UHGV virus genome: UHGV-0279810
DNA: 19,836 nucleotides
Source: a virus
Reading direction: 5' to 3' (one strand)
Translations under genes and position numbers: made by a program
Part shown: one piece after another, positions 151 to 6,175 of the stretch
How positions within the stretch are numbered: the first letter of the stretch is position 1
How the letters are laid out: each line of letters opens with the position of its first letter
The notes under the pieces: generated by a model
Database searches by the model: none
What the model saw: the letters and a program-made list of their open reading frames with translations, nothing else
Told to the model about the DNA's origin: nothing

Positions 151-179
151 TCAAGGATAATGATTTACAGGTCTACGGT

Positions 180-1310
180 TTGCGAGTCGTCGAGCCACAC
201 CACGACGGAACGCCGCACTGGCATATGATGCTTTTTTGTAATCCACGCCAGCGTAACCAGATTATCGAAATCATGCGTCGCTATGCGCTCAAAGAGGATG
301 GCGACGAAAGAGGAGCCGCGCGAAACCGTTTTCAGGCAAAACATCTTAACCGGGGCGGTGCTGCGGGATATATCGCGAAATACATTTCAAAAAACATCGA
401 CGGCTATGCACTGGATGGTCAGCTCGATAACGACACCGGCAGGCCGCTGAAAGACACTGCAGCGGCTGTTAGCGCATGGGCGTCAACGTGGCGCATCCCG
501 CAATTTAAAACGGTTGGCCTGCCGACAATGGGGGCTTACCGTGAACTACGCAAATTGCCGCGCGGCGTCAGCATTGCTGATGAGTTTGACGAGCGCGTCG
601 AGGCTGCACGCGCCGCCGCAGACAGTGGTGATTTTGCGTTGTATATCAGCGCGCAGGGTGGGGCAAATGTCCCGCGCGATTGTCAGACTGTCAGAGTCGC
701 CCGTATCCCGTCGGATGACGTTAACGAGTACGAGGAAGAAGTCGAGAGAGTGGTCGGCATTTACGCGCCGCATCTCGGCGCGCGTCATATTCATATCACC
801 AGAACGACGGACTGGCGCATTGTGCCGAAAGTTCCGGTCGTTGAGCCTTTGACTTTAAAAAGCGGCATCGCCGCGCCTCGGAGTCCTGTCAATAACTGTG
901 GAAAACTCACCGGTGGTGATACTTCGTTACCGGTTCCCACACCTTCTGAGCACGCCGCAGCAGTGCTTAATCTGGTTGATGACGGTGTTATCGAATGGAG
1001 TGACCCGGAGGTCGTGAGGGCGCTCAGAGGTGCATTAAAACACGGTCGGAGAACGCCAAATCGTCAGCAAAGAAACGGAAGCCCGTTAAAACCACATGAA
1101 ATTGCACCATCGGCCAGACTGGCCCGGTCGGAACGAATGCAAATTACCCGTATCCGCGTTGACCTTGCTCAGAACGGTATCAGGCCGCAGCGATGGGAGC
1201 TTGAGGCGCTGGCGCGTGGCGCGACCGTAAATTATGACGGGAAAAAATTCACGTATCCGGTCGCTGATGAGTGGTTCGGATTTCAAGATGAAGTGTCATT
1301 TTTTATATAA
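180..1310 (+). CDS. A: Replication initiation endonuclease gpA (rolling-circle Rep), 3' portion only; 5' part not contiguous in this window
   Basis: ORF translation has a His-hydrophobic-His motif (PHWHMMLF) followed about 50 residues later by paired tyrosines (GYIAKYISKN), as in HUH rolling-circle initiators. Position immediately upstream of the P2 tin/old slot. Frame is open back to 81 but no ATG/GTG start; the ORF track begins at a TTG. Confidence 0.8.
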   Translation: MRVVEPHHDGTPHWHMMLFCNPRQRNQIIEIMRRYALKEDGDERGAARNRFQAKHLNRGGAAGYIAKYISKNIDGYALDGQLDNDTGRPLKDTAAAVSAWASTWRIPQFKTVGLPTMGAYRELRKLPRGVSIADEFDERVEAARAAADSGDFALYISAQGGANVPRDCQTVRVARIPSDDVNEYEEEVERVVGIYAPHLGARHIHITRTTDWRIVPKVPVVEPLTLKSGIAAPRSPVNNCGKLTGGDTSLPVPTPSEHAAAVLNLVDDGVIEWSDPEVVRALRGALKHGRRTPNRQQRNGSPLKPHEIAPSARLARSERMQITRIRVDLAQNGIRPQRWELEALARGATVNYDGKKFTYPVADEWFGFQDEVSFFI

Positions 1311-1384
1311 AAAACGTTAAAATTCAATGCAATGAAGGCATAGAGGAGGTCGCTTTAATATGTTTTATGTTTAATATTTATTAA

Positions 1385-1413
1385 TTGTTTATTTAATATA
1401 AAAAAATATTATA
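1385..1413 (+). promoter_or_regulatory. Candidate sigma70 promoter for the cargo operon (TTGTTT -N16- TATTAT)
   Basis: TTGTTT at 1385-1390 and TATTAT at 1407-1412 in the AT-rich stretch after the A stop. Many alternative AT-rich hexamers exist nearby, so this is weak. Confidence 0.2.
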
Positions 1414-1449
1414 TATAGGGAGATCAAATACAACGGTTTACTTGTTATG

Positions 1450-1726
1450 ATGCAAACATTGGTTAGTTAGTGAGATACATCGCCATCAATTGGGTAACTT
1501 TACCCGTGGAAAGTTAACGCTTTCTAACATTTACCCCGCGCAACGCCCCTGCCAGCGACAAGAGTCACAGGATCAGGCGGTATGGCGTATGGGTATTCGA
1601 ACCCTTTGGGCGACCAAGGGTTCGTGGAGCAGGGGGCTAGTGCTGTTCAATCTCATCCTTATGAGGGCGAACCATAGTGTTGGAGCAGACATATCGTTTG
1701 CACACTATGGGCATAAGGAGCAAATC
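1450..1726 (+). ncRNA. Candidate structured non-coding RNA / regulatory leader upstream of the HTH-RT module (possible retron msr-msd); boundaries not resolved
   Basis: No ribosome-binding site for the ORF-track reading frame. Hairpins read by eye: CGAACCCTT-N9-AAGGGTTCG (1598-1624) and CCATAGTGT-N21-ACACTATGG (1672-1710). Near-palindrome GGGTAA-CT-TTACCC (1492-1505) and a second TTTACCC at 1530-1536. A retron RT gene normally has its ncRNA directly upstream. Confidence 0.25.
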
Positions 1727-1882
1727 ATGAAGAATGATAAATTAACCAACGAACAGCAGGCGCAGAACAAGTCAAACCTGAAAAAGTGGGCTGGTTATGT
1801 TTGGAAATTAATCAAATGGGGTATTAGACTGTTTGATTTAGCCACTCGAGCACTGGACTACTTTGAAGGGGGTGATGAGTAA
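1727..1882 (+). CDS. Small hypothetical protein (51 aa), first gene of the cargo operon
   Basis: ATG at 1727 preceded by AAGGAG (1715-1720) at good spacing. It is the only part of ORF 1490-1882 with a ribosome-binding site. Product MKNDKLTNEQQAQNKSNLKKWAGYVWKLIKWGIRLFDLATRALDYFEGGDE has a Trp-rich amphipathic segment. Confidence 0.45.
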   Translation: MKNDKLTNEQQAQNKSNLKKWAGYVWKLIKWGIRLFDLATRALDYFEGGDE

Positions 1883-1906
1883 TGCGTCCTCCCTAGTTTC
1901 AATAGC

Positions 1907-2239
1907 ATGGAGTTGCCTATGTTACACAGAGCCCTTCGTTTAATAAGGCAATACCATAAAGAGTCATTGGTTGATTTATCAACATCTTTAGGTATTCCAA
2001 AAGAAAAAATAGTAGAACTCGAAAGTGGGGTTTGGTCGCCTACAATTGATGTTTTACAGCGTTACGCCTCCCATTTCGATATGCCGGTATCTTCTTTAGT
2101 ATTTTTTTCAGAATCGTTAGGTACGCAGGGGCGTTTATCTAAGCGTTTCCGTTTAAATTTAGCTGGTAAAGTATTAGATGTTATTGAGTGGGCGAATAAG
2201 AAAAATGAAAAGACGAATAAAACTCAAAATTTCCACTAA
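1907..2239 (+). CDS. XRE-family helix-turn-helix DNA-binding protein (about 106-110 aa)
   Basis: Translation contains a classic XRE HTH (SLVDLSTSLGIPKEKIVELESG...SPTIDVLQRYASHF). Alternative start ATG at 1919 has a better GGAG upstream. Its 3' end abuts or overlaps the RT gene. Confidence 0.7.
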   Translation: MELPMLHRALRLIRQYHKESLVDLSTSLGIPKEKIVELESGVWSPTIDVLQRYASHFDMPVSSLVFFSESLGTQGRLSKRFRLNLAGKVLDVIEWANKKNEKTNKTQNFH

Positions 2240-3155
2240 AAATAAATCTTACGATATAATTGATTCGCCGTTTTATAAAATGAGAAGTAAAAGGAAATTG
2301 GCTTCTTTATTGGGGGTTGATGTAGGGGATTTATCAACCTTAAAAAAAGATGAAGGCAATTATTCTATTTTTGAACAGTTATCTAAAAACGGAAAGCCAC
2401 GTAAGATACAAAAACCATTAGAAAAATTAGATGTGGTGCATACTCGTATTGCAAGTCTGCTATCGCGAATTACCTTGCCAGATTATCTACATTCTGGAAA
2501 GAAGGGATGTTCTAATGTTACTAATGCTAAAATCCACCTTAATAATGAAAGGTTGATGACAACCGACATCAGGGCTTTTTTTCCATCAACTACTAGAGAA
2601 ATGATATTTTCATTCTTTTTTTCTGTTATGAAGATGTCATCTGATGTTGCGGATGTATTATCGTATATATGTACTTGCTATGGGCGTTTGCCTACAGGTA
2701 GCAGGATTAGTATGCCTCTTGCATATTTTGCAAATTCAAGAATGTTCGGAGAAATACACCAACTTTGTAATAAACTACACGTAAATATGTCTGTTTATGT
2801 TGATGATCTAACTTTTTCAGGACAAAACGTTAATAGACTATTTTGTTCAGTGATTCGCAAAATAATAAATAAGCATGGTCATGTGATGCATGCGGATAAA
2901 ACAAAAATTTATAGTAGAGAAAAGCCTAAGTTGGTAACAGGTGTTATTGTTTTGGGCGGTTCTTTAAAAGTCAGGAATAAGCAGCATCTTTTAATGTCTC
3001 AAGAAATTGAATATTGGAAAATGATAAAGGATGCAGCGTGTGCAAGAGAAACTCATACTGCCAAAAAGTTATTTGGACGATTGCATTCTATGGGGGTAAT
3101 TGAACAACGTTATAGATCAAAGGTGCTTACATTAAAAGCAAGTACTGCACTTTAA
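2178..3155 (+). CDS. Retron-type reverse transcriptase (about 291-325 aa depending on start)
   Basis: RT motifs in the translation: DIRAFFPS (motif 4-like), SVYVDDLTFSG (catalytic YxDD), NAKIH (retron NAxxH motif) and KLVTGVIVLGG (retron VTG motif). Size matches retron RTs of about 300-320 aa. Possible starts at 2178, 2205 or 2280. Confidence 0.85.
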   Translation: MLLSGRIRKMKRRIKLKISTKNKSYDIIDSPFYKMRSKRKLASLLGVDVGDLSTLKKDEGNYSIFEQLSKNGKPRKIQKPLEKLDVVHTRIASLLSRITLPDYLHSGKKGCSNVTNAKIHLNNERLMTTDIRAFFPSTTREMIFSFFFSVMKMSSDVADVLSYICTCYGRLPTGSRISMPLAYFANSRMFGEIHQLCNKLHVNMSVYVDDLTFSGQNVNRLFCSVIRKIINKHGHVMHADKTKIYSREKPKLVTGVIVLGGSLKVRNKQHLLMSQEIEYWKMIKDAACARETHTAKKLFGRLHSMGVIEQRYRSKVLTLKASTAL

Positions 3156-3206
3156 TACAGGTTCCTGTAAGTGATTATATTGTTCTTAAGATACTTACTG
3201 ATGTTA

Positions 3207-3236
3207 TTTCCCCGTAGCCTTAATTTCTGCGGGGAA
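3207..3236. terminator. Hairpin between convergent RT and FRG genes (possible bidirectional terminator)
   Basis: TTTCCCCGTAG (3207-3217) pairs with CTGCGGGGAA (3227-3236) around a 9-nt loop; a T-rich run follows on the + strand only. Confidence 0.3.
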
Positions 3237-3263
3237 GTATGGAGATATTTTGGTTATGGAATG

Positions 3264-4628
3264 CTAATTTTTTAATGTGTATTTTTCTGTGATTAGTTTC
3301 ATTGTTCTTTCCAATCCTAAATATACAGTGGCATCAGTAATATTGAGCACGGCAAGTTCTTTTAAAATTTTCTTTTTGTCTCTGATGTTTATTTTTTCTG
3401 TCTTAAAGTTGTATGGTGAATTATCTGCCTGATCGTTGGATATCTCAGGAAAAACGGCGTTATTACCGAATAATAAAAAGGCACCGGATTGAGATGATAT
3501 TCTTTCATTATTTATCCTGCTTTTTACAAAAATTATCTTTTCCAAATCATCTGGATTTATTATGCTTTGAAAATATGGTTTTTCATGCTTTATGGATTCT
3601 AAGAGTTTAAGGCAAGCATGAGAGTTGTTAAAATCATTATTTCTTTCTTCGAAAGAAAGCTTGTCTTTCATGTCTTTTGATAGCATGCATAAATTAGATA
3701 TGCAACTGACAGTGTCGGAATCGAAAAATTTAATGTTCTCTCTGTGTGTTTTAAATATTATTACTTGACCATCGATATCGTTTTTGTCGGAATTTATACT
3801 ACTGCATGCAAAATAAAGTGCAATTAATGGATTTGATGTGATGTCAAGTAAGCGAGTAGGTATGCCATAATGTTGCATTCTTACAAGTTTATCAAGCATT
3901 GATGTATCATCAATGAATTCTGAGGGTCTTGCGCTCAATGCTTCTTTAACAAGGTTGATTTCATTATGTAGAAATTTATAGTTCCCATTTTCATATTTTC
4001 TGAAAAGAGATGGTGCAAGTTCATAAGATGAATCTGAATGACCCCTGTAAAAAATCTCCTCATCCATATCTGCTGTTATATGGAGAACTTTTTCAATAAA
4101 TTCTTGTAAACTATTTACGGTTAATAATGTGCTATCTTCGTCTGGGAGAGGCGCTGGACTGCTATCCACTTGTGCATTTTGGTTAATACCAAATGTCTTA
4201 AGGATATCATCTATATTTTTGTCTTTTATGGCCCAGTGTGTTCTTTTAAGGCCATAAGTTCCGAGTTCTAAACTGCTTTCAACACTTTTGGCGTCTGATA
4301 TTTTGATTTCATTGTGTGTATGGGTGATTGCAAATTGGAAGTTGATTTCTTTTCCCTTAATGTGAATATTTGAAATTCTTCCAATTCGTATGTCGACATA
4401 ATAAGGTTTTGCTCCCTCTATTTGATAAGCTTCACTCATGAATATTGTTGGGAGTTTTTCAAGATAAGATAGTACATTGCTGCTTAATGGGGATAGTTTT
4501 TTGCGAATACCATCGGAGGTGTTTTCAAACATTCGTGATAAAAGAAATGAGAATTCTCCATTATTTTGGCTGAATGGTTTCCAGTGGTCGTAGTGGTCGG
4601 GAAAACCACCCATAATTAAATTAATCAT
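3264..4628 (-). CDS. FRG-domain protein (454 aa), candidate defence protein; N- and C-terminal regions of unknown function
   Basis: Central region carries the FRG-domain signature: FYRGHSDSSYELAPSLFR ... MQHYGIPTRLLDITSNPLIALYFA. AT-rich, lies in the P2 tin/old slot, convergent to the RT operon. Start ATG at 4628 with a weak AGGT ribosome-binding site. Confidence 0.65.
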   Translation of the reverse strand: MINLIMGGFPDHYDHWKPFSQNNGEFSFLLSRMFENTSDGIRKKLSPLSSNVLSYLEKLPTIFMSEAYQIEGAKPYYVDIRIGRISNIHIKGKEINFQFAITHTHNEIKISDAKSVESSLELGTYGLKRTHWAIKDKNIDDILKTFGINQNAQVDSSPAPLPDEDSTLLTVNSLQEFIEKVLHITADMDEEIFYRGHSDSSYELAPSLFRKYENGNYKFLHNEINLVKEALSARPSEFIDDTSMLDKLVRMQHYGIPTRLLDITSNPLIALYFACSSINSDKNDIDGQVIIFKTHRENIKFFDSDTVSCISNLCMLSKDMKDKLSFEERNNDFNNSHACLKLLESIKHEKPYFQSIINPDDLEKIIFVKSRINNERISSQSGAFLLFGNNAVFPEISNDQADNSPYNFKTEKINIRDKKKILKELAVLNITDATVYLGLERTMKLITEKYTLKN

Positions 4629-4911
4629 AATTACCTGTTCATCTGATGTAGGTGTAGGAATGCTTGTTGTTTGTTATGGTAATGTTAACGCTTGTTGGTG
4701 GCAACTACTATTACTACTTGCTGTTAGAGCTAAGACATTTTTTGATTGCTTGTAATGATAGCGAGCCTTTAACTAACTGGGATTTTGAAAAAATAAATGA
4801 ATTGTCAATTTCCTGAGATTTTTATTACTGCATTCATTAAGTGCATTTTTTTGCGTGTGTTAGTTGCCATGCTTTTCCATGTTTGTTACCAGTGTTGATG
4901 CGGTTACTGTG

Positions 4912-4933
4912 TTTTAATGCAATTGCATTAAAA
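4912..4933. repeat. 22-bp perfect palindrome TTTTAATGCAATTGCATTAAAA about 20 bp left of cos
   Basis: Exact self-complementary sequence read directly; candidate protein-binding site or hairpin. Confidence 0.6.
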
Positions 4934-5140: not shown

Positions 5141-6175
5141 TCAGCCGTTGTCAGTGTCCAGTGAGTAGTTTTTAAAGCGGATGACCTCCTGGCCGAGCCA
5201 GCCGTTTATTTCCCGAATCCTGTCCTGTAACGGGATTAGCTCATTGCGGACAAAGACCTTTGCCACTTTCTCAATATCACCCAGTGACCCGACGTTCTCC
5301 GGCTTGCCACCCATCAACTGAAAGGGGATGCGGTGTGCGTCCAGCAGGTCAGCGGCGCTGGCTTTTTTGATATTAAAAAAATCGTCCTTCGTCGCCACTT
5401 CACTGAGCGGGATAATTTTAATGCCGTCGGCTTTCCCCTGCGGGGCATAGAGAAACAGGTTTTTAAAGTTGTTGCGGCCTTTCGACTTCACCATGTTTTC
5501 GCGAAGCATTTCGATATCGTTGCGATCCTGCACGGCATCGGTGACGTACATGATGTATCCGGCATGTGCGCCATTTTCGTAATACTTGCGGCGGAACAGC
5601 GTGGCCGACTCATTCAGCCAGGCAGAGTTAAGGGCGCTGAGATATTCCGGCAGGCCGTACAGCTCCTGATTAATATCCGGCTCCAGCAGGTGAAACACGG
5701 AGCCGGGCGCGAAGGCTGTCGGCTCGTTGAAGGACGGCACCCACCAGTAAACATCCTCCTCCACGCCACGGCGGGTATATTTTGCCGGTGAGGTTTCCAG
5801 TCTGATGACCTTACCGGTGGTGCTGTAACGCTTTTCCAGAAACGCATTACCGAACACCAGAAAATCCAGCACAAAGCGGCTGAAATCCTGCTGGGAAAGC
5901 CACGGGTGCGGGATAAACGTTGAAGCCAGAATATTACGTTTGACGTAAATCGGTGAGCTGTGATGCACGGCAGCACGCAGGCTTTTTGCCAGACCGGTAA
6001 AGCTGACCGGCGGCTCATACCATCTGCCGTTACTGATACATTCGACGTAATCCAGAATGTCACGGCGGTCGAGCACCGGCACCGGCTCACCAAAGGTGAA
6101 TGCCTCCATTTTCGGGGCGCTGGCGGTCATTTTTTTTGCCGCAGGTTGCGGTGTTTTCCCTTTTTTCTTGCTCAT
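5141..6175 (-). CDS. Q: Portal protein gpQ
   Basis: 344-aa product with Lys-rich N-terminus MSKKKGKTPQPAAKK; P2 order cos-Q-P on the minus strand; ATGA start/stop overlap with P. Confidence 0.9.
   Translation of the reverse strand: MSKKKGKTPQPAAKKMTASAPKMEAFTFGEPVPVLDRRDILDYVECISNGRWYEPPVSFTGLAKSLRAAVHHSSPIYVKRNILASTFIPHPWLSQQDFSRFVLDFLVFGNAFLEKRYSTTGKVIRLETSPAKYTRRGVEEDVYWWVPSFNEPTAFAPGSVFHLLEPDINQELYGLPEYLSALNSAWLNESATLFRRKYYENGAHAGYIMYVTDAVQDRNDIEMLRENMVKSKGRNNFKNLFLYAPQGKADGIKIIPLSEVATKDDFFNIKKASAADLLDAHRIPFQLMGGKPENVGSLGDIEKVAKVFVRNELIPLQDRIREINGWLGQEVIRFKNYSLDTDNG

What the first reader, a model, noticed from the sequence alone, without database searches (positions are those of the whole stretch)
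1907..3155. HTH protein plus compact retron-type reverse transcriptase in a P2 prophage hotspot
The RT (2178-3155) has the catalytic YVDD box and the two motifs I know as retron-specific (NAxxH as NAKIH, and VTG), and is retron-sized rather than Abi-sized. It is immediately preceded by an XRE-type HTH gene whose end it abuts or overlaps. An RT paired with a small HTH protein matches, from memory, the architecture classed as type VI retrons, for which I am not aware of a well-established mechanism. Retrons and Abi-type RTs are both known cargo of P2-like prophage hotspots, which supports a defence role. The longer Abi-P2-type RTs reported from P2-like prophages are the main alternative to exclude.
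Basis: partly seen in the sequence, partly recalled or inferred. Interest (0 to 1): 0.8.

Follow-up and report, generated by a model that had tools for sequence, protein, structure and literature searches.

The report
Type VI retron on P2-like phage
The flagged genes are two parts of a known four-part anti-phage system, a type VI retron (structured RNA, small toxin, HTH protein and reverse transcriptase), carried in the cargo hotspot of a P2-like E. coli phage; it is a correct identification of something already described, not a new kind of system.

Summary
An HTH gene (true start 1919, end 2239) overlaps a 316-aa reverse transcriptase gene (true start 2205, end 3155) by 35 nt. The RT carries YVDD, NAKIH and VTG.

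PADLOC profiles place them in type VI retrons: RT_VI 1e-105 (next family 5e-45) and HTH_VI 7e-30. No Abi, DRT or group II intron signal competes.

Upstream lie a 51-aa small-protein (SP) toxin gene (1727-1882) and a ~430-nt structured RNA (about 1477-1905). This RNA contains the reverse-transcription template and folds over the SP ribosome-binding site and start codon. Compensatory base changes across 12-24 loci support that fold.

The module is homologous to Retron-Vpa2 (RT 54%, HTH 50% identity) and has the same RNA architecture. Two preprints from 2025-2026 describe mechanisms for this type, so "no established mechanism" is out of date.

The sequence is 100% identical to phage P2_2H1, whose trio a 2021 paper already called type VI retron-like. 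It occurs in 100 of 5426 complete E. coli genomes.

The most likely mechanism is inferred by homology. Phage recombination proteins or RecBCD inhibition let msDNA accumulate. The msDNA then derepresses SP translation and causes abortive infection.

Novelty: already known. Interest: low.

The parts
1477..1905 (+). Hybrid RNA (hyRNA): a structured non-coding 5' domain plus the embedded SP coding sequence. The 5' end is uncertain. The conserved module starts at about 1441, and no promoter was identified.
   Evidence: - MFE of 1477-1905 is -154 kcal/mol, z = -5.55 against 100 shuffles.
- The consensus fold of 12 loci has 56 pairs, 23 of them with compensatory changes. 96.1% of cells are paired, against 86.8% when shuffled and 38-49% when slid.
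- A covariance model of 1591-1764 finds one + strand hit at the same place in 24 of 87 sources, 11 of them not used for training. On that alignment 26 of 28 pairs show double changes.
- Retron-Vpa2 RNA folds the same way.
1492..1526 (+). Two short conserved hairpins, msr-like: P1 (1492-1496/1501-1505) and P2 (1507-1514/1519-1526).
   Evidence: In P1, 4 of 6 pairs covary (GC to AU, UA to CG/AU). P2 has an invariant GGAAAG/CUUUC core, with 2 covarying pairs at the top.
1532..1624 (+). Predicted reverse-transcription template (msd). It comprises a hairpin of variable sequence and length (1532-1595) and the conserved stem-loop P3 (1598-1609/1614-1624), whose loop carries GGGCGA at 1608-1613.
   Evidence: - The hairpin is closed by invariant CCC/GGG, and its interior varies in length and sequence between loci.
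- P3 has 11 bp, 4 of them with double changes.
- In Vpa2 the homologous hairpin plus P3 is about 84-86 nt, matching the published 86-nt msDNA whose 5' stem-loop is essential.
- The assignment in the window is by homology only.
1625..1636 (+). IR1 (UGGAGCAGGGGG), which pairs with IR2 at 1889-1901 and so encloses the whole SP arm.
   Evidence: The pairing appears in the window MFE. RNAduplex finds this site as the best partner of the post-SP element in all 13 closer loci, and in L010 and L012. The change UGGAGC/GUUUCA to UCGAGAC/GUUUCGA keeps the helix.
1641..1648 (+). 5' arm of a long-range helix (UGCUGUUC). It pairs with 1751-1758 (GAACAGCA), which lies inside the SP codons for N-E-Q-Q-A. The helix spans the SP ribosome-binding site and start codon.
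   Evidence: 8 bp, 100% of cells paired in 23 distinct sequences, and all 8 pairs show double changes. The middle pair is UA, AU or GC.
1656..1671 (+). Anti-Shine-Dalgarno strand UCCUUAUG (1656-1663), which pairs with CAUAAGGA (1712-1719). It is followed by the second copy of the loop repeat, GGGCGA (1665-1670).
   Evidence: - 8 bp, 7 of them with compensatory changes, 93.7% paired.
- The repeats GGGCGA at 1608 and 1665 correspond to the conserved direct repeats reported for Vpa2. In Vpa2 both copies read GGACGAA.
1727..1882 (+). SP gene: a 51-aa small protein and the predicted toxic effector. Its RBS is AAGGAG at 1714-1719, and its AUG sits in a small hairpin (1724-1728/1734-1738).
   Evidence: - An ORF of 47-55 aa is conserved at this position in more than 20 loci.
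- All share a polar N-terminus with QQ, a Lys-rich linker, a W/K-rich hydrophobic helix and an acidic tail.
- The Vpa2 SP (K15, I39, F43, F45 verified) is the homologue.
- RefSeq calls it WP_001754918.1.
- dS is only 0.11-0.43, against 0.65-2.7 in HTH and RT, as expected for codons inside an RNA structure.
1889..1901 (+). IR2 (CUCCCUAGUUUCA), just after the SP stop codon. It can pair with IR1, or alternatively with AGGGGG at 1867-1872 at the end of the SP coding sequence.
   Evidence: CCCU-GUUUC is invariant across 12 loci from E. coli to Shewanella, although it is non-coding. For the pairings.
1919..2239 (+). HTH gene (106 aa), Cro/C1-XRE type. Predicted partner of the RT and brake on the system.
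   Evidence: - PADLOC HTH_VI 7.2e-30.
- Pfam HTH_3/HTH_31 hits are weak.
- 50% identical to the Vpa2 HTH, including R7, the residue whose mutation is toxic in Vpa2.
- dN/dS 0.05-0.13.
2205..3155 (+). Retron reverse transcriptase (316 aa).
   Evidence: - PADLOC RT_VI 1.1e-105 and Pfam RVT_1.
- All PDB sequence hits are retron RTs; the best is Ec86 at 2e-12.
- 54% identical to the Vpa2 RT and 81% to WP_000746343.1, a type VI 'Large' clade leaf.
- Catalytic and retron motifs are invariant.

Best explanation
Window 1441/1477-3155 is a complete type VI retron of the Retron-Vpa2/Retron-Eco12 lineage (the 'Large' clade). It sits in the gene A-portal (tin/old) cargo hotspot of a P2-like temperate phage identical to Escherichia virus P2_2H1.

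The system has four parts:
- a ~430-nt hybrid RNA
- the 51-aa SP toxin encoded inside that RNA
- an HTH protein
- a reverse transcriptase

Shown here by sequence analysis:
- The family assignment of RT and HTH.
- Conservation of the SP ORF.
- A covariation-supported RNA fold in which the SP ribosome-binding site and start codon are buried. An anti-SD helix and a long-range helix reaching into the SP codons do the burying. A second inverted repeat (IR1/IR2) closes the SP arm.

Inferred by homology with Retron-Vpa2:
- In a lysogen, RT, HTH and the RNA form a complex. The HTH holds reverse transcription down and SP is not translated.
- An infecting phage expresses recombination proteins (lambda Beta + Exo) and/or inhibits RecBCD. 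A roughly 90-nt single-stranded DNA copied from 1532-1624 then accumulates.
- The 5' part of this DNA carries the complement of the GGGCGA loop repeat. It is proposed to anneal to the second GGGCGA next to the anti-SD strand and open the ribosome-binding site.
- SP is made and arrests or kills the cell before the phage completes (abortive infection). This protects the P2 lysogen population.
For: Classification:
- PADLOC RT_VI 1e-105 and HTH_VI 7e-30.
- 81% identity to a type VI tree leaf.
- All PDB hits are retron RTs.
- Retron motifs are invariant.

Architecture:
- SP-HTH-RT is conserved, with HTH/RT overlapping, in E. coli, Klebsiella, Serratia, Acerihabitans, Xenorhabdus, Vibrio, Shewanella, Marinomonas, Acinetobacter and others.

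Link to Vpa2:
- L087 carries the published Vpa2 residues: SP K15/I39/F43/F45 and HTH R7.
- It matches the window at 54% (RT) and 50% (HTH) identity.

RNA:
- z = -5.55.
- 23 of 56 and 26 of 28 pairs have compensatory changes, with shuffle and slide controls far below the observed values.
- The covariance model hits only at the expected site.
- IR1/IR2 are recovered independently in 15 loci.
- The Vpa2 RNA has the same MFE architecture.
- Duplicated loop repeats are present.

Selection:
- dN/dS is 0.01-0.13 for RT and HTH. dS is depressed in SP.

Mechanism in the literature:
- bioRxiv 10.1101/2025.10.22.683967 reports that an E. coli type VI retron, Retron-Eco12, defends against lambda-vir without detectable basal msDNA.

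Hotspot:
- Other P2-like phages share about 96%-identical flanks and carry other cargo there.
Against: - Nothing about expression, msDNA, toxicity or defence was or can be measured here.
- The other studied type VI retron, Sen3, uses the same gene order but a different control. There ssDNA and SP are made constitutively, and the HTH acts as a post-translational antitoxin. Architecture alone therefore does not fix the regulatory mode.
- The loop repeat is only 6 nt in the window (GGGCGA), against 7 nt in Vpa2.
- No promoter, branching G or canonical a1/a2 priming duplex could be identified.
- SP similarity to the Vpa2 SP is weak pairwise (E = 0.012). It rests on position, length, composition and intermediate sequences.
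- Whether this allele is Retron-Eco12 itself could not be checked, because that sequence is not in the held text.
Confidence: 0.8

Rival explanations
1. The locus is the same type VI retron but is regulated as in Retron-Sen3. RT-dependent ssDNA and SP would be made constitutively. The HTH would neutralise SP post-translationally as an antitoxin. Loss of RecBCD activity during infection would release the toxin without any change in ssDNA level.
For: The gene order is the same, and Sen3 also has an RNA scaffold with a sequestered ribosome-binding site. HTH loss is toxic in both systems. The window is from an enterobacterium, as Sen3 is.
Against: - The window RT clusters with the 'Large' clade that holds Vpa2, not with cl2075.
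- SP is 51 aa with no similarity to the 79-aa Sen3 SP. It also lacks the N-terminal extension and the amphipathic C-terminal helix proposed to bind the HTH.
- The window RNA matches the Vpa2 RNA element for element.
- The E. coli type VI retron tested (Eco12) showed no basal msDNA.
Confidence: 0.17
2. The RT is an Abi-P2/DRT-type or group II intron-type reverse transcriptase that acts without an msDNA-templating RNA. The HTH gene would then be an unrelated phage regulator.
For: Abi-P2 RTs are known cargo of P2 prophages (established knowledge). There is a weak Drt3a hit at E = 0.004.
Against: - The RT is 316 aa with no extra domain.
- The best 25 PADLOC hits are all retron RT models, led by RT_VI at 351 bits.
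- There is no Rfam group II intron hit and no Pfam hit other than RVT_1.
- HTH and RT overlap and co-occur in more than 20 taxa, both inside and outside P2 phages.
- A conserved structured RNA lies upstream.
Confidence: 0.01
3. The module is a decaying, non-functional remnant carried passively in the prophage.
For: No expression data are available, and no promoter was recognised by the consensus scan.
Against: - All reading frames are intact and all invariant residues are present.
- RT and HTH are under strong purifying selection.
- All RNA helices are intact in the window.
- The sequence is identical in at least 14 chromosomes and in an isolated phage, and at least 99% identical in 60 genomes.
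Confidence: 0.02

Closest known systems
Retron-Vpa2 (Vibrio parahaemolyticus) and Retron-Eco12 (E. coli), type VI retrons, bioRxiv 10.1101/2025.10.22.683967
   Same: - The operon order is the same: ncRNA, SP, HTH, RT.
- The RT is 54% identical, with YVDD in both. The HTH is 50% identical, including R7.
- SP has the same size class and the F-(E/D)-G-G-D tail.
- The RNA has the same elements in the same order: P1, P2, variable hairpin, P3 with loop repeat, IR1/IR2, a long-range helix into the SP codons, an anti-SD/SD helix with the second repeat, and a start-codon hairpin.
   Different: - The host and vehicle differ. The window copy rides a P2-like phage hotspot. The Vpa2 copy examined lies next to hipA and rpoD.
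- SP sequences are barely alignable.
- The loop repeat is GGGCGA rather than GGACGAA.
- The window variable hairpin is about 10 nt longer.
- Identity with Eco12 itself could not be verified.
Retron-Sen3 (Salmonella enterica, cl2075 lineage), bioRxiv 10.64898/2026.04.27.721009
   Same: It is the same retron type and has the same gene order. The SP gene is embedded in a structured transcript, with an inverted repeat flanking SP. The HTH is essential for viability. Triggers come from the lambda Red / RecBCD axis.
   Different: - It belongs to a different RT subclade (cl2075 versus 'Large').
- Its SP is 79 aa and unrelated in sequence.
- It makes ssDNA and SP constitutively, and control is post-translational.
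The P2_2H1 / Klebsiella ST147-VIM1phi7.1 / Shewanella MuM16-1 RT-HTH-small ORF trios noted in PMC8541194 (2021)
   Same: The P2_2H1 trio is this very sequence, 100% identical over 151-4926. It was already described as corresponding to type VI retrons and as lying between the replication and portal genes.
   Different: That paper gave no RNA element and no functional test. It also used the 130-aa mis-called ORF (gp41) rather than the 51-aa SP.
P2 Old (and Tin), the classical cargo of the same hotspot
   Same: The genomic slot is the same, between gene A and cos/portal. The ecological role is also the same: a lysogen-expressed module that excludes lambda. P2 Old interference is relieved by lambda red gam mutations and is lethal in recB/recC hosts (established knowledge). 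This is the same Red/RecBCD axis that triggers type VI retrons.
   Different: The proteins are unrelated and Old has no RNA or reverse transcription. Old and Tin are absent from the window, where the only island genes are SP, HTH, RT and an FRG-domain gene.

Membership tests
Type VI retron (Mestre et al. 2020 classification) | The RT belongs to the retron RT clade 3 / type VI lineage. | tested here: met
   PADLOC RT_VI 1.1e-105 over 278 of 279 profile positions; the next best is RT_III-A at 5e-45. The RT is 81% identical to WP_000746343.1, labelled 'Large_' within type VI in the published tree file.
Type VI retron (Mestre et al. 2020 classification) | A Cro/C1-type HTH protein (cluster cl2_1) lies immediately upstream of, or overlapping, the RT gene. 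| tested here: met
   PADLOC HTH_VI 7.2e-30. There is a 35-nt overlap with the RT. The pair is co-conserved in more than 20 loci.
Type VI retron (Mestre et al. 2020 classification) | A small accessory protein (SP) gene lies upstream of the HTH gene. | tested here: met
   The 51-aa ORF at 1727-1882 has an AAGGAG ribosome-binding site. A 47-55-aa ORF is conserved at this position, with shared composition.
Retron (general) | Retron-specific RT motifs (NAxxH, VTG) together with the catalytic YxDD box. | tested here: met
   NAKIH at 107-111, VTG at 244-246 and YVDD at 198-201. All are invariant in the 25-sequence alignment.
Retron (general) | A structured ncRNA (msr-msd) adjacent to the RT operon. 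| tested here: met
   Covariation-supported structure; z = -5.55. No Rfam family covers it.
Retron (general) | An a1/a2 inverted repeat with a conserved branching G that primes reverse transcription. | tested here: inconclusive
   An inverted repeat exists (IR1 1625-1636 / IR2 1889-1901), but it flanks the SP arm rather than the msr-msd. No conserved G follows IR2. Pairing of the 5' end with the HTH ribosome-binding-site region is no better than shuffled controls.
Retron (general) | RT-dependent production of msDNA. | not testable with these tools
   This needs wet-lab work. In Vpa2 and Eco12, msDNA is undetectable basally and is induced by triggers.
Retron-Vpa2-like hyRNA riboregulator | The SP ribosome-binding site and start codon are sequestered in stems. 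Conserved direct repeats sit in the msd loop and in the riboregulator loop. The 3' end pairs back to the first arm. | tested here: met
   - Anti-SD/SD helix: 7 of 8 pairs are compensatory.
- Start-codon hairpin at 1724-1738, and GGGCGA at 1608 and 1665.
- IR1/IR2.
- The Vpa2 RNA gives the same fold.
- The function of these elements in the window is untested.
Retron-Sen3 / cl2075 lineage | A cl2075 SP (about 79 aa, with an N-terminal extension and an amphipathic C-terminal helix) together with a cl2075 RT subclade. | tested here: not met
   SP is 51 aa and gives no BLASTP alignment to residues 1-56 of the Sen3 SP. The nearest tree leaf belongs to the 'Large' clade.
Abi-P2 / AbiA / AbiK / DRT (UG) reverse transcriptases | An RT of those clades, usually longer and carrying extra C-terminal domains. 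| tested here: not met
   None of these families appears among the best 25 PADLOC hits. NCBIfam Drt3a scores only E = 0.0037 and 16.6 bits against a cut-off of 200. The protein is 316 aa.
Group II intron RT | A maturase/X domain and a flanking group II ribozyme. | tested here: not met
   Pfam finds RVT_1 only. There are no Rfam hits in the whole window at E <= 1.

The most novel reading that the evidence does not exclude
The RNA may be a cDNA-operated switch built from competing G-runs and C-runs:
- C-run at 1533-1537
- G-runs at 1591-1593, 1632-1636 and 1868-1872
- C-run at 1889-1894

Copying and RNase H removal of 1532-1624 in cis would free IR1. That would re-pair the SP arm, in addition to the published trans annealing of the loop repeat.

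The two most conserved SP peptide motifs are N-terminal QQ and C-terminal F-E-G-G-D. On this reading they would be imposed mainly by these RNA helices rather than by protein function.

A corollary is that P2-like phages swap functionally equivalent Red/RecBCD-sensing lambda-exclusion modules (Old, the type IV retron Ec48, this type VI retron) at one slot.
Probability: 0.15. Interest if true: 0.45.

Novelty: already known. Interest (0 to 1): 0.2.

Why it matters
For a genome scan, this is a clean positive control. Motif reading alone correctly called a type VI retron, and the tools then recovered the two components it missed.

Biologically the locus is useful rather than surprising:
- It is a natural E. 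coli, phage-borne representative of a retron type whose logic is inverted, because its msDNA switches the toxin on rather than holding it off.
- It is present in about 2% of complete E. coli genomes, including an O157:H7 allele, and it sits on an isolated temperate phage (P2_2H1).
- It could therefore serve as a native-host model for testing the Vpa2 and Sen3 modes of control.
- It could also be used to ask how a prophage-carried retron treats its own carrier's induction, and to explore why Red/RecBCD sensors recur in the P2 tin/old slot.

The coordinate map of RNA helices given here turns these questions into specific mutagenesis experiments.

Tried and rejected
- **Rfam:** a scan of the whole window at E <= 1 found nothing. 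No curated family covers this RNA.
- **NCBIfam:** only sub-threshold retron models (St85, TIR, Ec67) matched, so no equivalog name is available.
- **Promoter and terminator scan of 1250-3350:** no promoter-like site lies upstream of the RNA, and counts are no higher than in shuffles. Manual inspection of 1380-1476 gave only weak candidates. The promoter and the RNA 5' end stay unresolved.
- **First MFE of 1400-1920:** it paired UAGGGAGAUC (1416-1425) with the post-SP element. This was rejected, because that upstream segment is not conserved outside E. coli alleles and IR1 is the consistent partner.
- **Closing helix between the 5' end (CGCCAU) and the HTH ribosome-binding site (AUGGAG):** energies were no better than shuffled controls in 12 loci. 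Rejected.
- **Full-length covariance model (291 positions):** A 179-position model was used instead.
- **Identity with Retron-Eco12:** the sequence or accession is absent from the main text and supplements held.
- **FRG-domain gene as a fifth component:** rejected, because it accompanies only one of three E. coli alleles and none of the other genera.
- **Not done:** structure prediction and fold search were judged unnecessary for the verdict. One genome-collection scan and one protein-homology search were used.
Full report

Yes. On the + strand there is an ORF at 1907-2239 and an ORF at 2178-3155.

Homologue alignments and the RefSeq calls on an identical E. coli chromosome move both starts:
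- The HTH protein starts at ATG 1919 (MLHRALRLIRQYH...), with GGAG at 1909-1912 as its ribosome-binding site.
- The RT starts at ATG 2205 (MKRRIKLKI...).
- The two genes therefore overlap by 35 nt.

Numbered from 2205, the RT has NAKIH at 107-111, YVDD at 198-201 and VTG at 244-246. These residues are invariant in a 25-sequence alignment that reaches down to 46% identity.

Pfam gives RVT_1 above its gathering score for the RT. It gives only weak XRE-type HTH hits for the upstream protein.

**2. What family is it?**

The PADLOC profiles are decisive:
- RT_VI scores 1.1e-105 across the whole profile. The next best is RT_III-A at 5e-45.
- HTH_VI scores 7.2e-30.

Other tests agree:
- NCBIfam has only sub-threshold retron models, plus a negligible Drt3a hit.
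- All sequence matches to solved structures are retron RTs. Ec86 is the best at 2e-12, so no type VI structure has been solved.
- Rfam finds nothing in the window, including no group II intron.

The RT has 328 relatives at E <= 1e-20. One of them, WP_000746343.1 from E. coli O157:H7, is 81% identical. It appears as 'Large_WP_000746343.1' in the type VI tree file of Garcia-Rodriguez et al..

**3. The unit is bigger than the finding**

The literature search turned up two preprints showing that type VI retrons have four parts: a structured RNA, a small protein (SP) toxin, the HTH protein and the RT.

The window has the missing two parts just upstream of the flagged span.

*The SP gene.* A 51-aa ORF lies at 1727-1882, with an AAGGAG ribosome-binding site. 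RefSeq calls it WP_001754918.1.
- A 47-55-aa ORF is present at the same position in every relative examined. These include Klebsiella, Serratia, Acerihabitans, Xenorhabdus, Vibrio, Shewanella, Marinomonas, Acinetobacter, Yersinia and Hafnia.
- These ORFs share a polar QQ-containing N-terminus, a lysine-rich linker, a W/K-rich hydrophobic helix and an acidic tail.

*Link to Retron-Vpa2.* One V. parahaemolyticus locus (L087) carries exactly the residues mutated in the Retron-Vpa2 paper: SP K15, I39, F43, F45 and HTH R7. I therefore take it to be Retron-Vpa2. Against it, the window RT is 54% identical, the HTH is 50% identical, and SP is weakly similar over its C-terminal half.

**4. The RNA**

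Folding 1477-1905 alone gives -154 kcal/mol, z = -5.55.

A MAFFT alignment of 12 loci shows blocks of near-invariant sequence separated by a hairpin of variable length. The loci are three E. coli alleles at 100, 84 and 78% nucleotide identity, plus Klebsiella, Serratia, Acerihabitans, an uncultured enterobacterium, two Vibrio, two Xenorhabdus and Shewanella.

Covariation support:

| Test | Result |
|---|---|
| RNAalifold consensus, 12 loci | 56 pairs, 23 with compensatory changes |
| Cells paired on that sequence-only alignment | 96.1%, against 86.8% shuffled and 38-49% with partners slid |
| Covariance model of 1591-1764 | 24 + strand hits in 87 sources, one per locus, always just upstream of and running into the SP start; 11 in loci not used to build it |
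| Pairs on the model-fitted alignment | 26 of 28 with double changes, 93.6% paired against 70.3% shuffled; this alignment leans towards the model |

In window coordinates:

| Element | Coordinates |
|---|---|
| P1 hairpin | 1492-1496 / 1501-1505 |
| P2 hairpin | 1507-1514 / 1519-1526 |
| Variable hairpin | 1532-1595 |
| P3 stem-loop | 1598-1609 / 1614-1624, loop GGGCGA at 1608 |
| IR1 / IR2 | 1625-1636 / 1889-1901 |
| Long-range helix | 1641-1648 / 1751-1758 (inside the codons N-E-Q-Q-A; every pair covaries) |
| Anti-SD / SD | 1656-1663 / 1712-1719 (7 of 8 pairs compensatory) |
| Second GGGCGA repeat | 1665 |
| Start-codon hairpin | 1724-1728 / 1734-1738 |

Further points:
- IR1 was recovered as the best partner of the invariant post-SP element (CCCUAGUUUC) in all 13 closer loci and in two more distant ones.
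- The Vpa2 RNA folds into the same three-armed shape. This matches the published description of the ~470-nt 'hybrid RNA', including its buried ribosome-binding site and start codon and its conserved direct repeats.
- Synonymous divergence in SP (dS 0.11-0.43) is several-fold lower than in HTH and RT (0.65-2.7). That fits codons that must also keep an RNA fold. RT and HTH are under strong purifying selection, with dN/dS of 0.01-0.13.

**5. Where it sits**

Window 151-4926 is 100% identical to Escherichia virus P2_2H1 (NC_049386.1), an isolated Peduovirus.

P2 gene A ends at 1310 and the portal gene is at 5141-6175 (-). The interval between them is an AT-rich island of 31-39% GC, against 52-59% in the flanks.

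Other P2-like phages share the flanks at about 96% identity but carry different cargo there. Examples are Fic/VbhT, cytolethal distending toxin, ParaMORC3 + Dcm, DUF4238 and retron Ec48. This is the classical tin/old hotspot.

The module is in 100 of 5426 complete E. coli genomes: 60 at 99% identity or more, 28 at 80-90% and 12 at 60-80%. All copies are chromosomal.

The convergent FRG-domain gene (3264-4628, -) accompanies only the window-type allele, so it is separate cargo.

**6. How it most likely works**

*Shown here:* the parts list, their conservation, and an RNA fold that hides the SP translation signals.

*Inferred from Retron-Vpa2:*
- RT, HTH and the RNA form a complex. The HTH restrains reverse transcription, and SP is translationally silent.
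- Phage recombination proteins (lambda Beta + Exo), helped by RecBCD inhibition, let an ssDNA copy of the hairpin plus P3 accumulate. In the window this template is predicted to be 1532-1624, about 90 nt.
- The 5' part of that ssDNA carries the complement of the loop repeat. It is proposed to anneal to the second repeat next to the anti-SD strand, so that SP is translated and the cell aborts the infection.

I put about 0.6 on this specific mode. I put about 0.17-0.25 on the Sen3 mode (constitutive ssDNA and SP, with the HTH as a post-translational antitoxin and RecBCD surveillance). The reasons are that RT clade, SP type and RNA all match Vpa2 rather than Sen3, and that the tested E. coli type VI retron (Eco12) showed no basal msDNA.

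**7. Comparison and novelty**

The closest known systems are Retron-Vpa2 and Retron-Eco12.

This very locus was already described in 2021 as 'corresponding to type VI retron systems', located between the replication and portal genes of P2_2H1 (PMC8541194). Standard defence-finder profiles call it outright. It is therefore already known.

What this analysis adds:
- Corrected gene starts.
- Recognition of the 51-aa SP, which the phage record merges into a 130-aa ORF together with the RNA.
- A helix-by-helix map of the RNA for this allele.

One conceptual point rests on established knowledge of P2 Old: lambda exclusion by Old is relieved by red gam mutations, and Old is lethal in recB/recC hosts. 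The hotspot here carries a retron triggered by the same Red/RecBCD axis, and phage pro147 carries retron Ec48 in the same slot. This suggests interchangeable sensors of the same phage activity.

**8. What could not be settled**

- The promoter and the exact RNA ends.
- A branching G or canonical a1/a2 duplex.
- Whether this allele is Eco12 itself.
- Anything that requires expression, msDNA detection or phage challenge.

Noticed in passing
window 3264-4628 (-): A 454-aa protein with an FRG domain (Pfam 2.4e-21, residues 191-281) matches the PADLOC candidate defence family PDC-S15 (7e-98). It is convergent with the RT in the same AT-rich island. Its N-terminal ~165 residues have no assignment. 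It is present only with the window-type retron allele, so it is an independent cargo gene and a candidate defence gene of unknown mechanism.
   Followed up: partly
window 1490-1882 (+): The phage record NC_049386.1 annotates a 130-aa 'hypothetical protein' (gp41) here. This ORF runs through the structured RNA into the real 51-aa SP gene. The apparently conserved peptide MGIRTLWATKGSWSRGLVLFNLILMRAN seen in several loci reflects conserved RNA sequence, not a protein.
   Followed up: yes
window 1311-4900, and phage hits: The gene A-portal slot of P2-like phages holds very different cargo in otherwise ~96%-identical phages: Fic/VbhT, cytolethal distending toxin, ParaMORC3 + Dcm, DUF4238, DUF4209, a 3'-5' exoribonuclease, and retron Ec48 in phage pro147. 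Neither old nor tin is present in this window.
   Followed up: partly
L001 6880-8001 (NZ_AP022173.1): An E. coli chromosome with an identical retron has an IS21-family element (ISEc12) inserted downstream of the FRG gene. The window and phage P2_2H1 lack this insertion.
   Followed up: no
window 1866-1895: The end of the SP coding sequence (AAGGGGGU, the codons for E-G-G) can hairpin with the post-stop CCUCCCU that also forms IR2. The same C-run therefore has two mutually exclusive partners. A third G-run (1632-1636) can pair either with IR2 or with the C-run at 1533-1537. Whether these alternatives are used as a switch is unknown.
   Followed up: partly
window 4664-4816 (+): A small ORF (50 aa, TTG start) is annotated as a hypothetical protein in the phage record (gp45). 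It lies between the FRG gene and the cos/portal region and has no assignment.
   Followed up: no
L084/L085 and L086/L087 (Vibrio parahaemolyticus): V. parahaemolyticus carries two different type VI retron alleles in different, non-P2 contexts. RT P0053 has a 47-aa SP. RT P0076, which is Vpa2, has a 55-aa SP and lies next to hipA and rpoD. The module therefore moves independently of P2 phages.
   Followed up: partly
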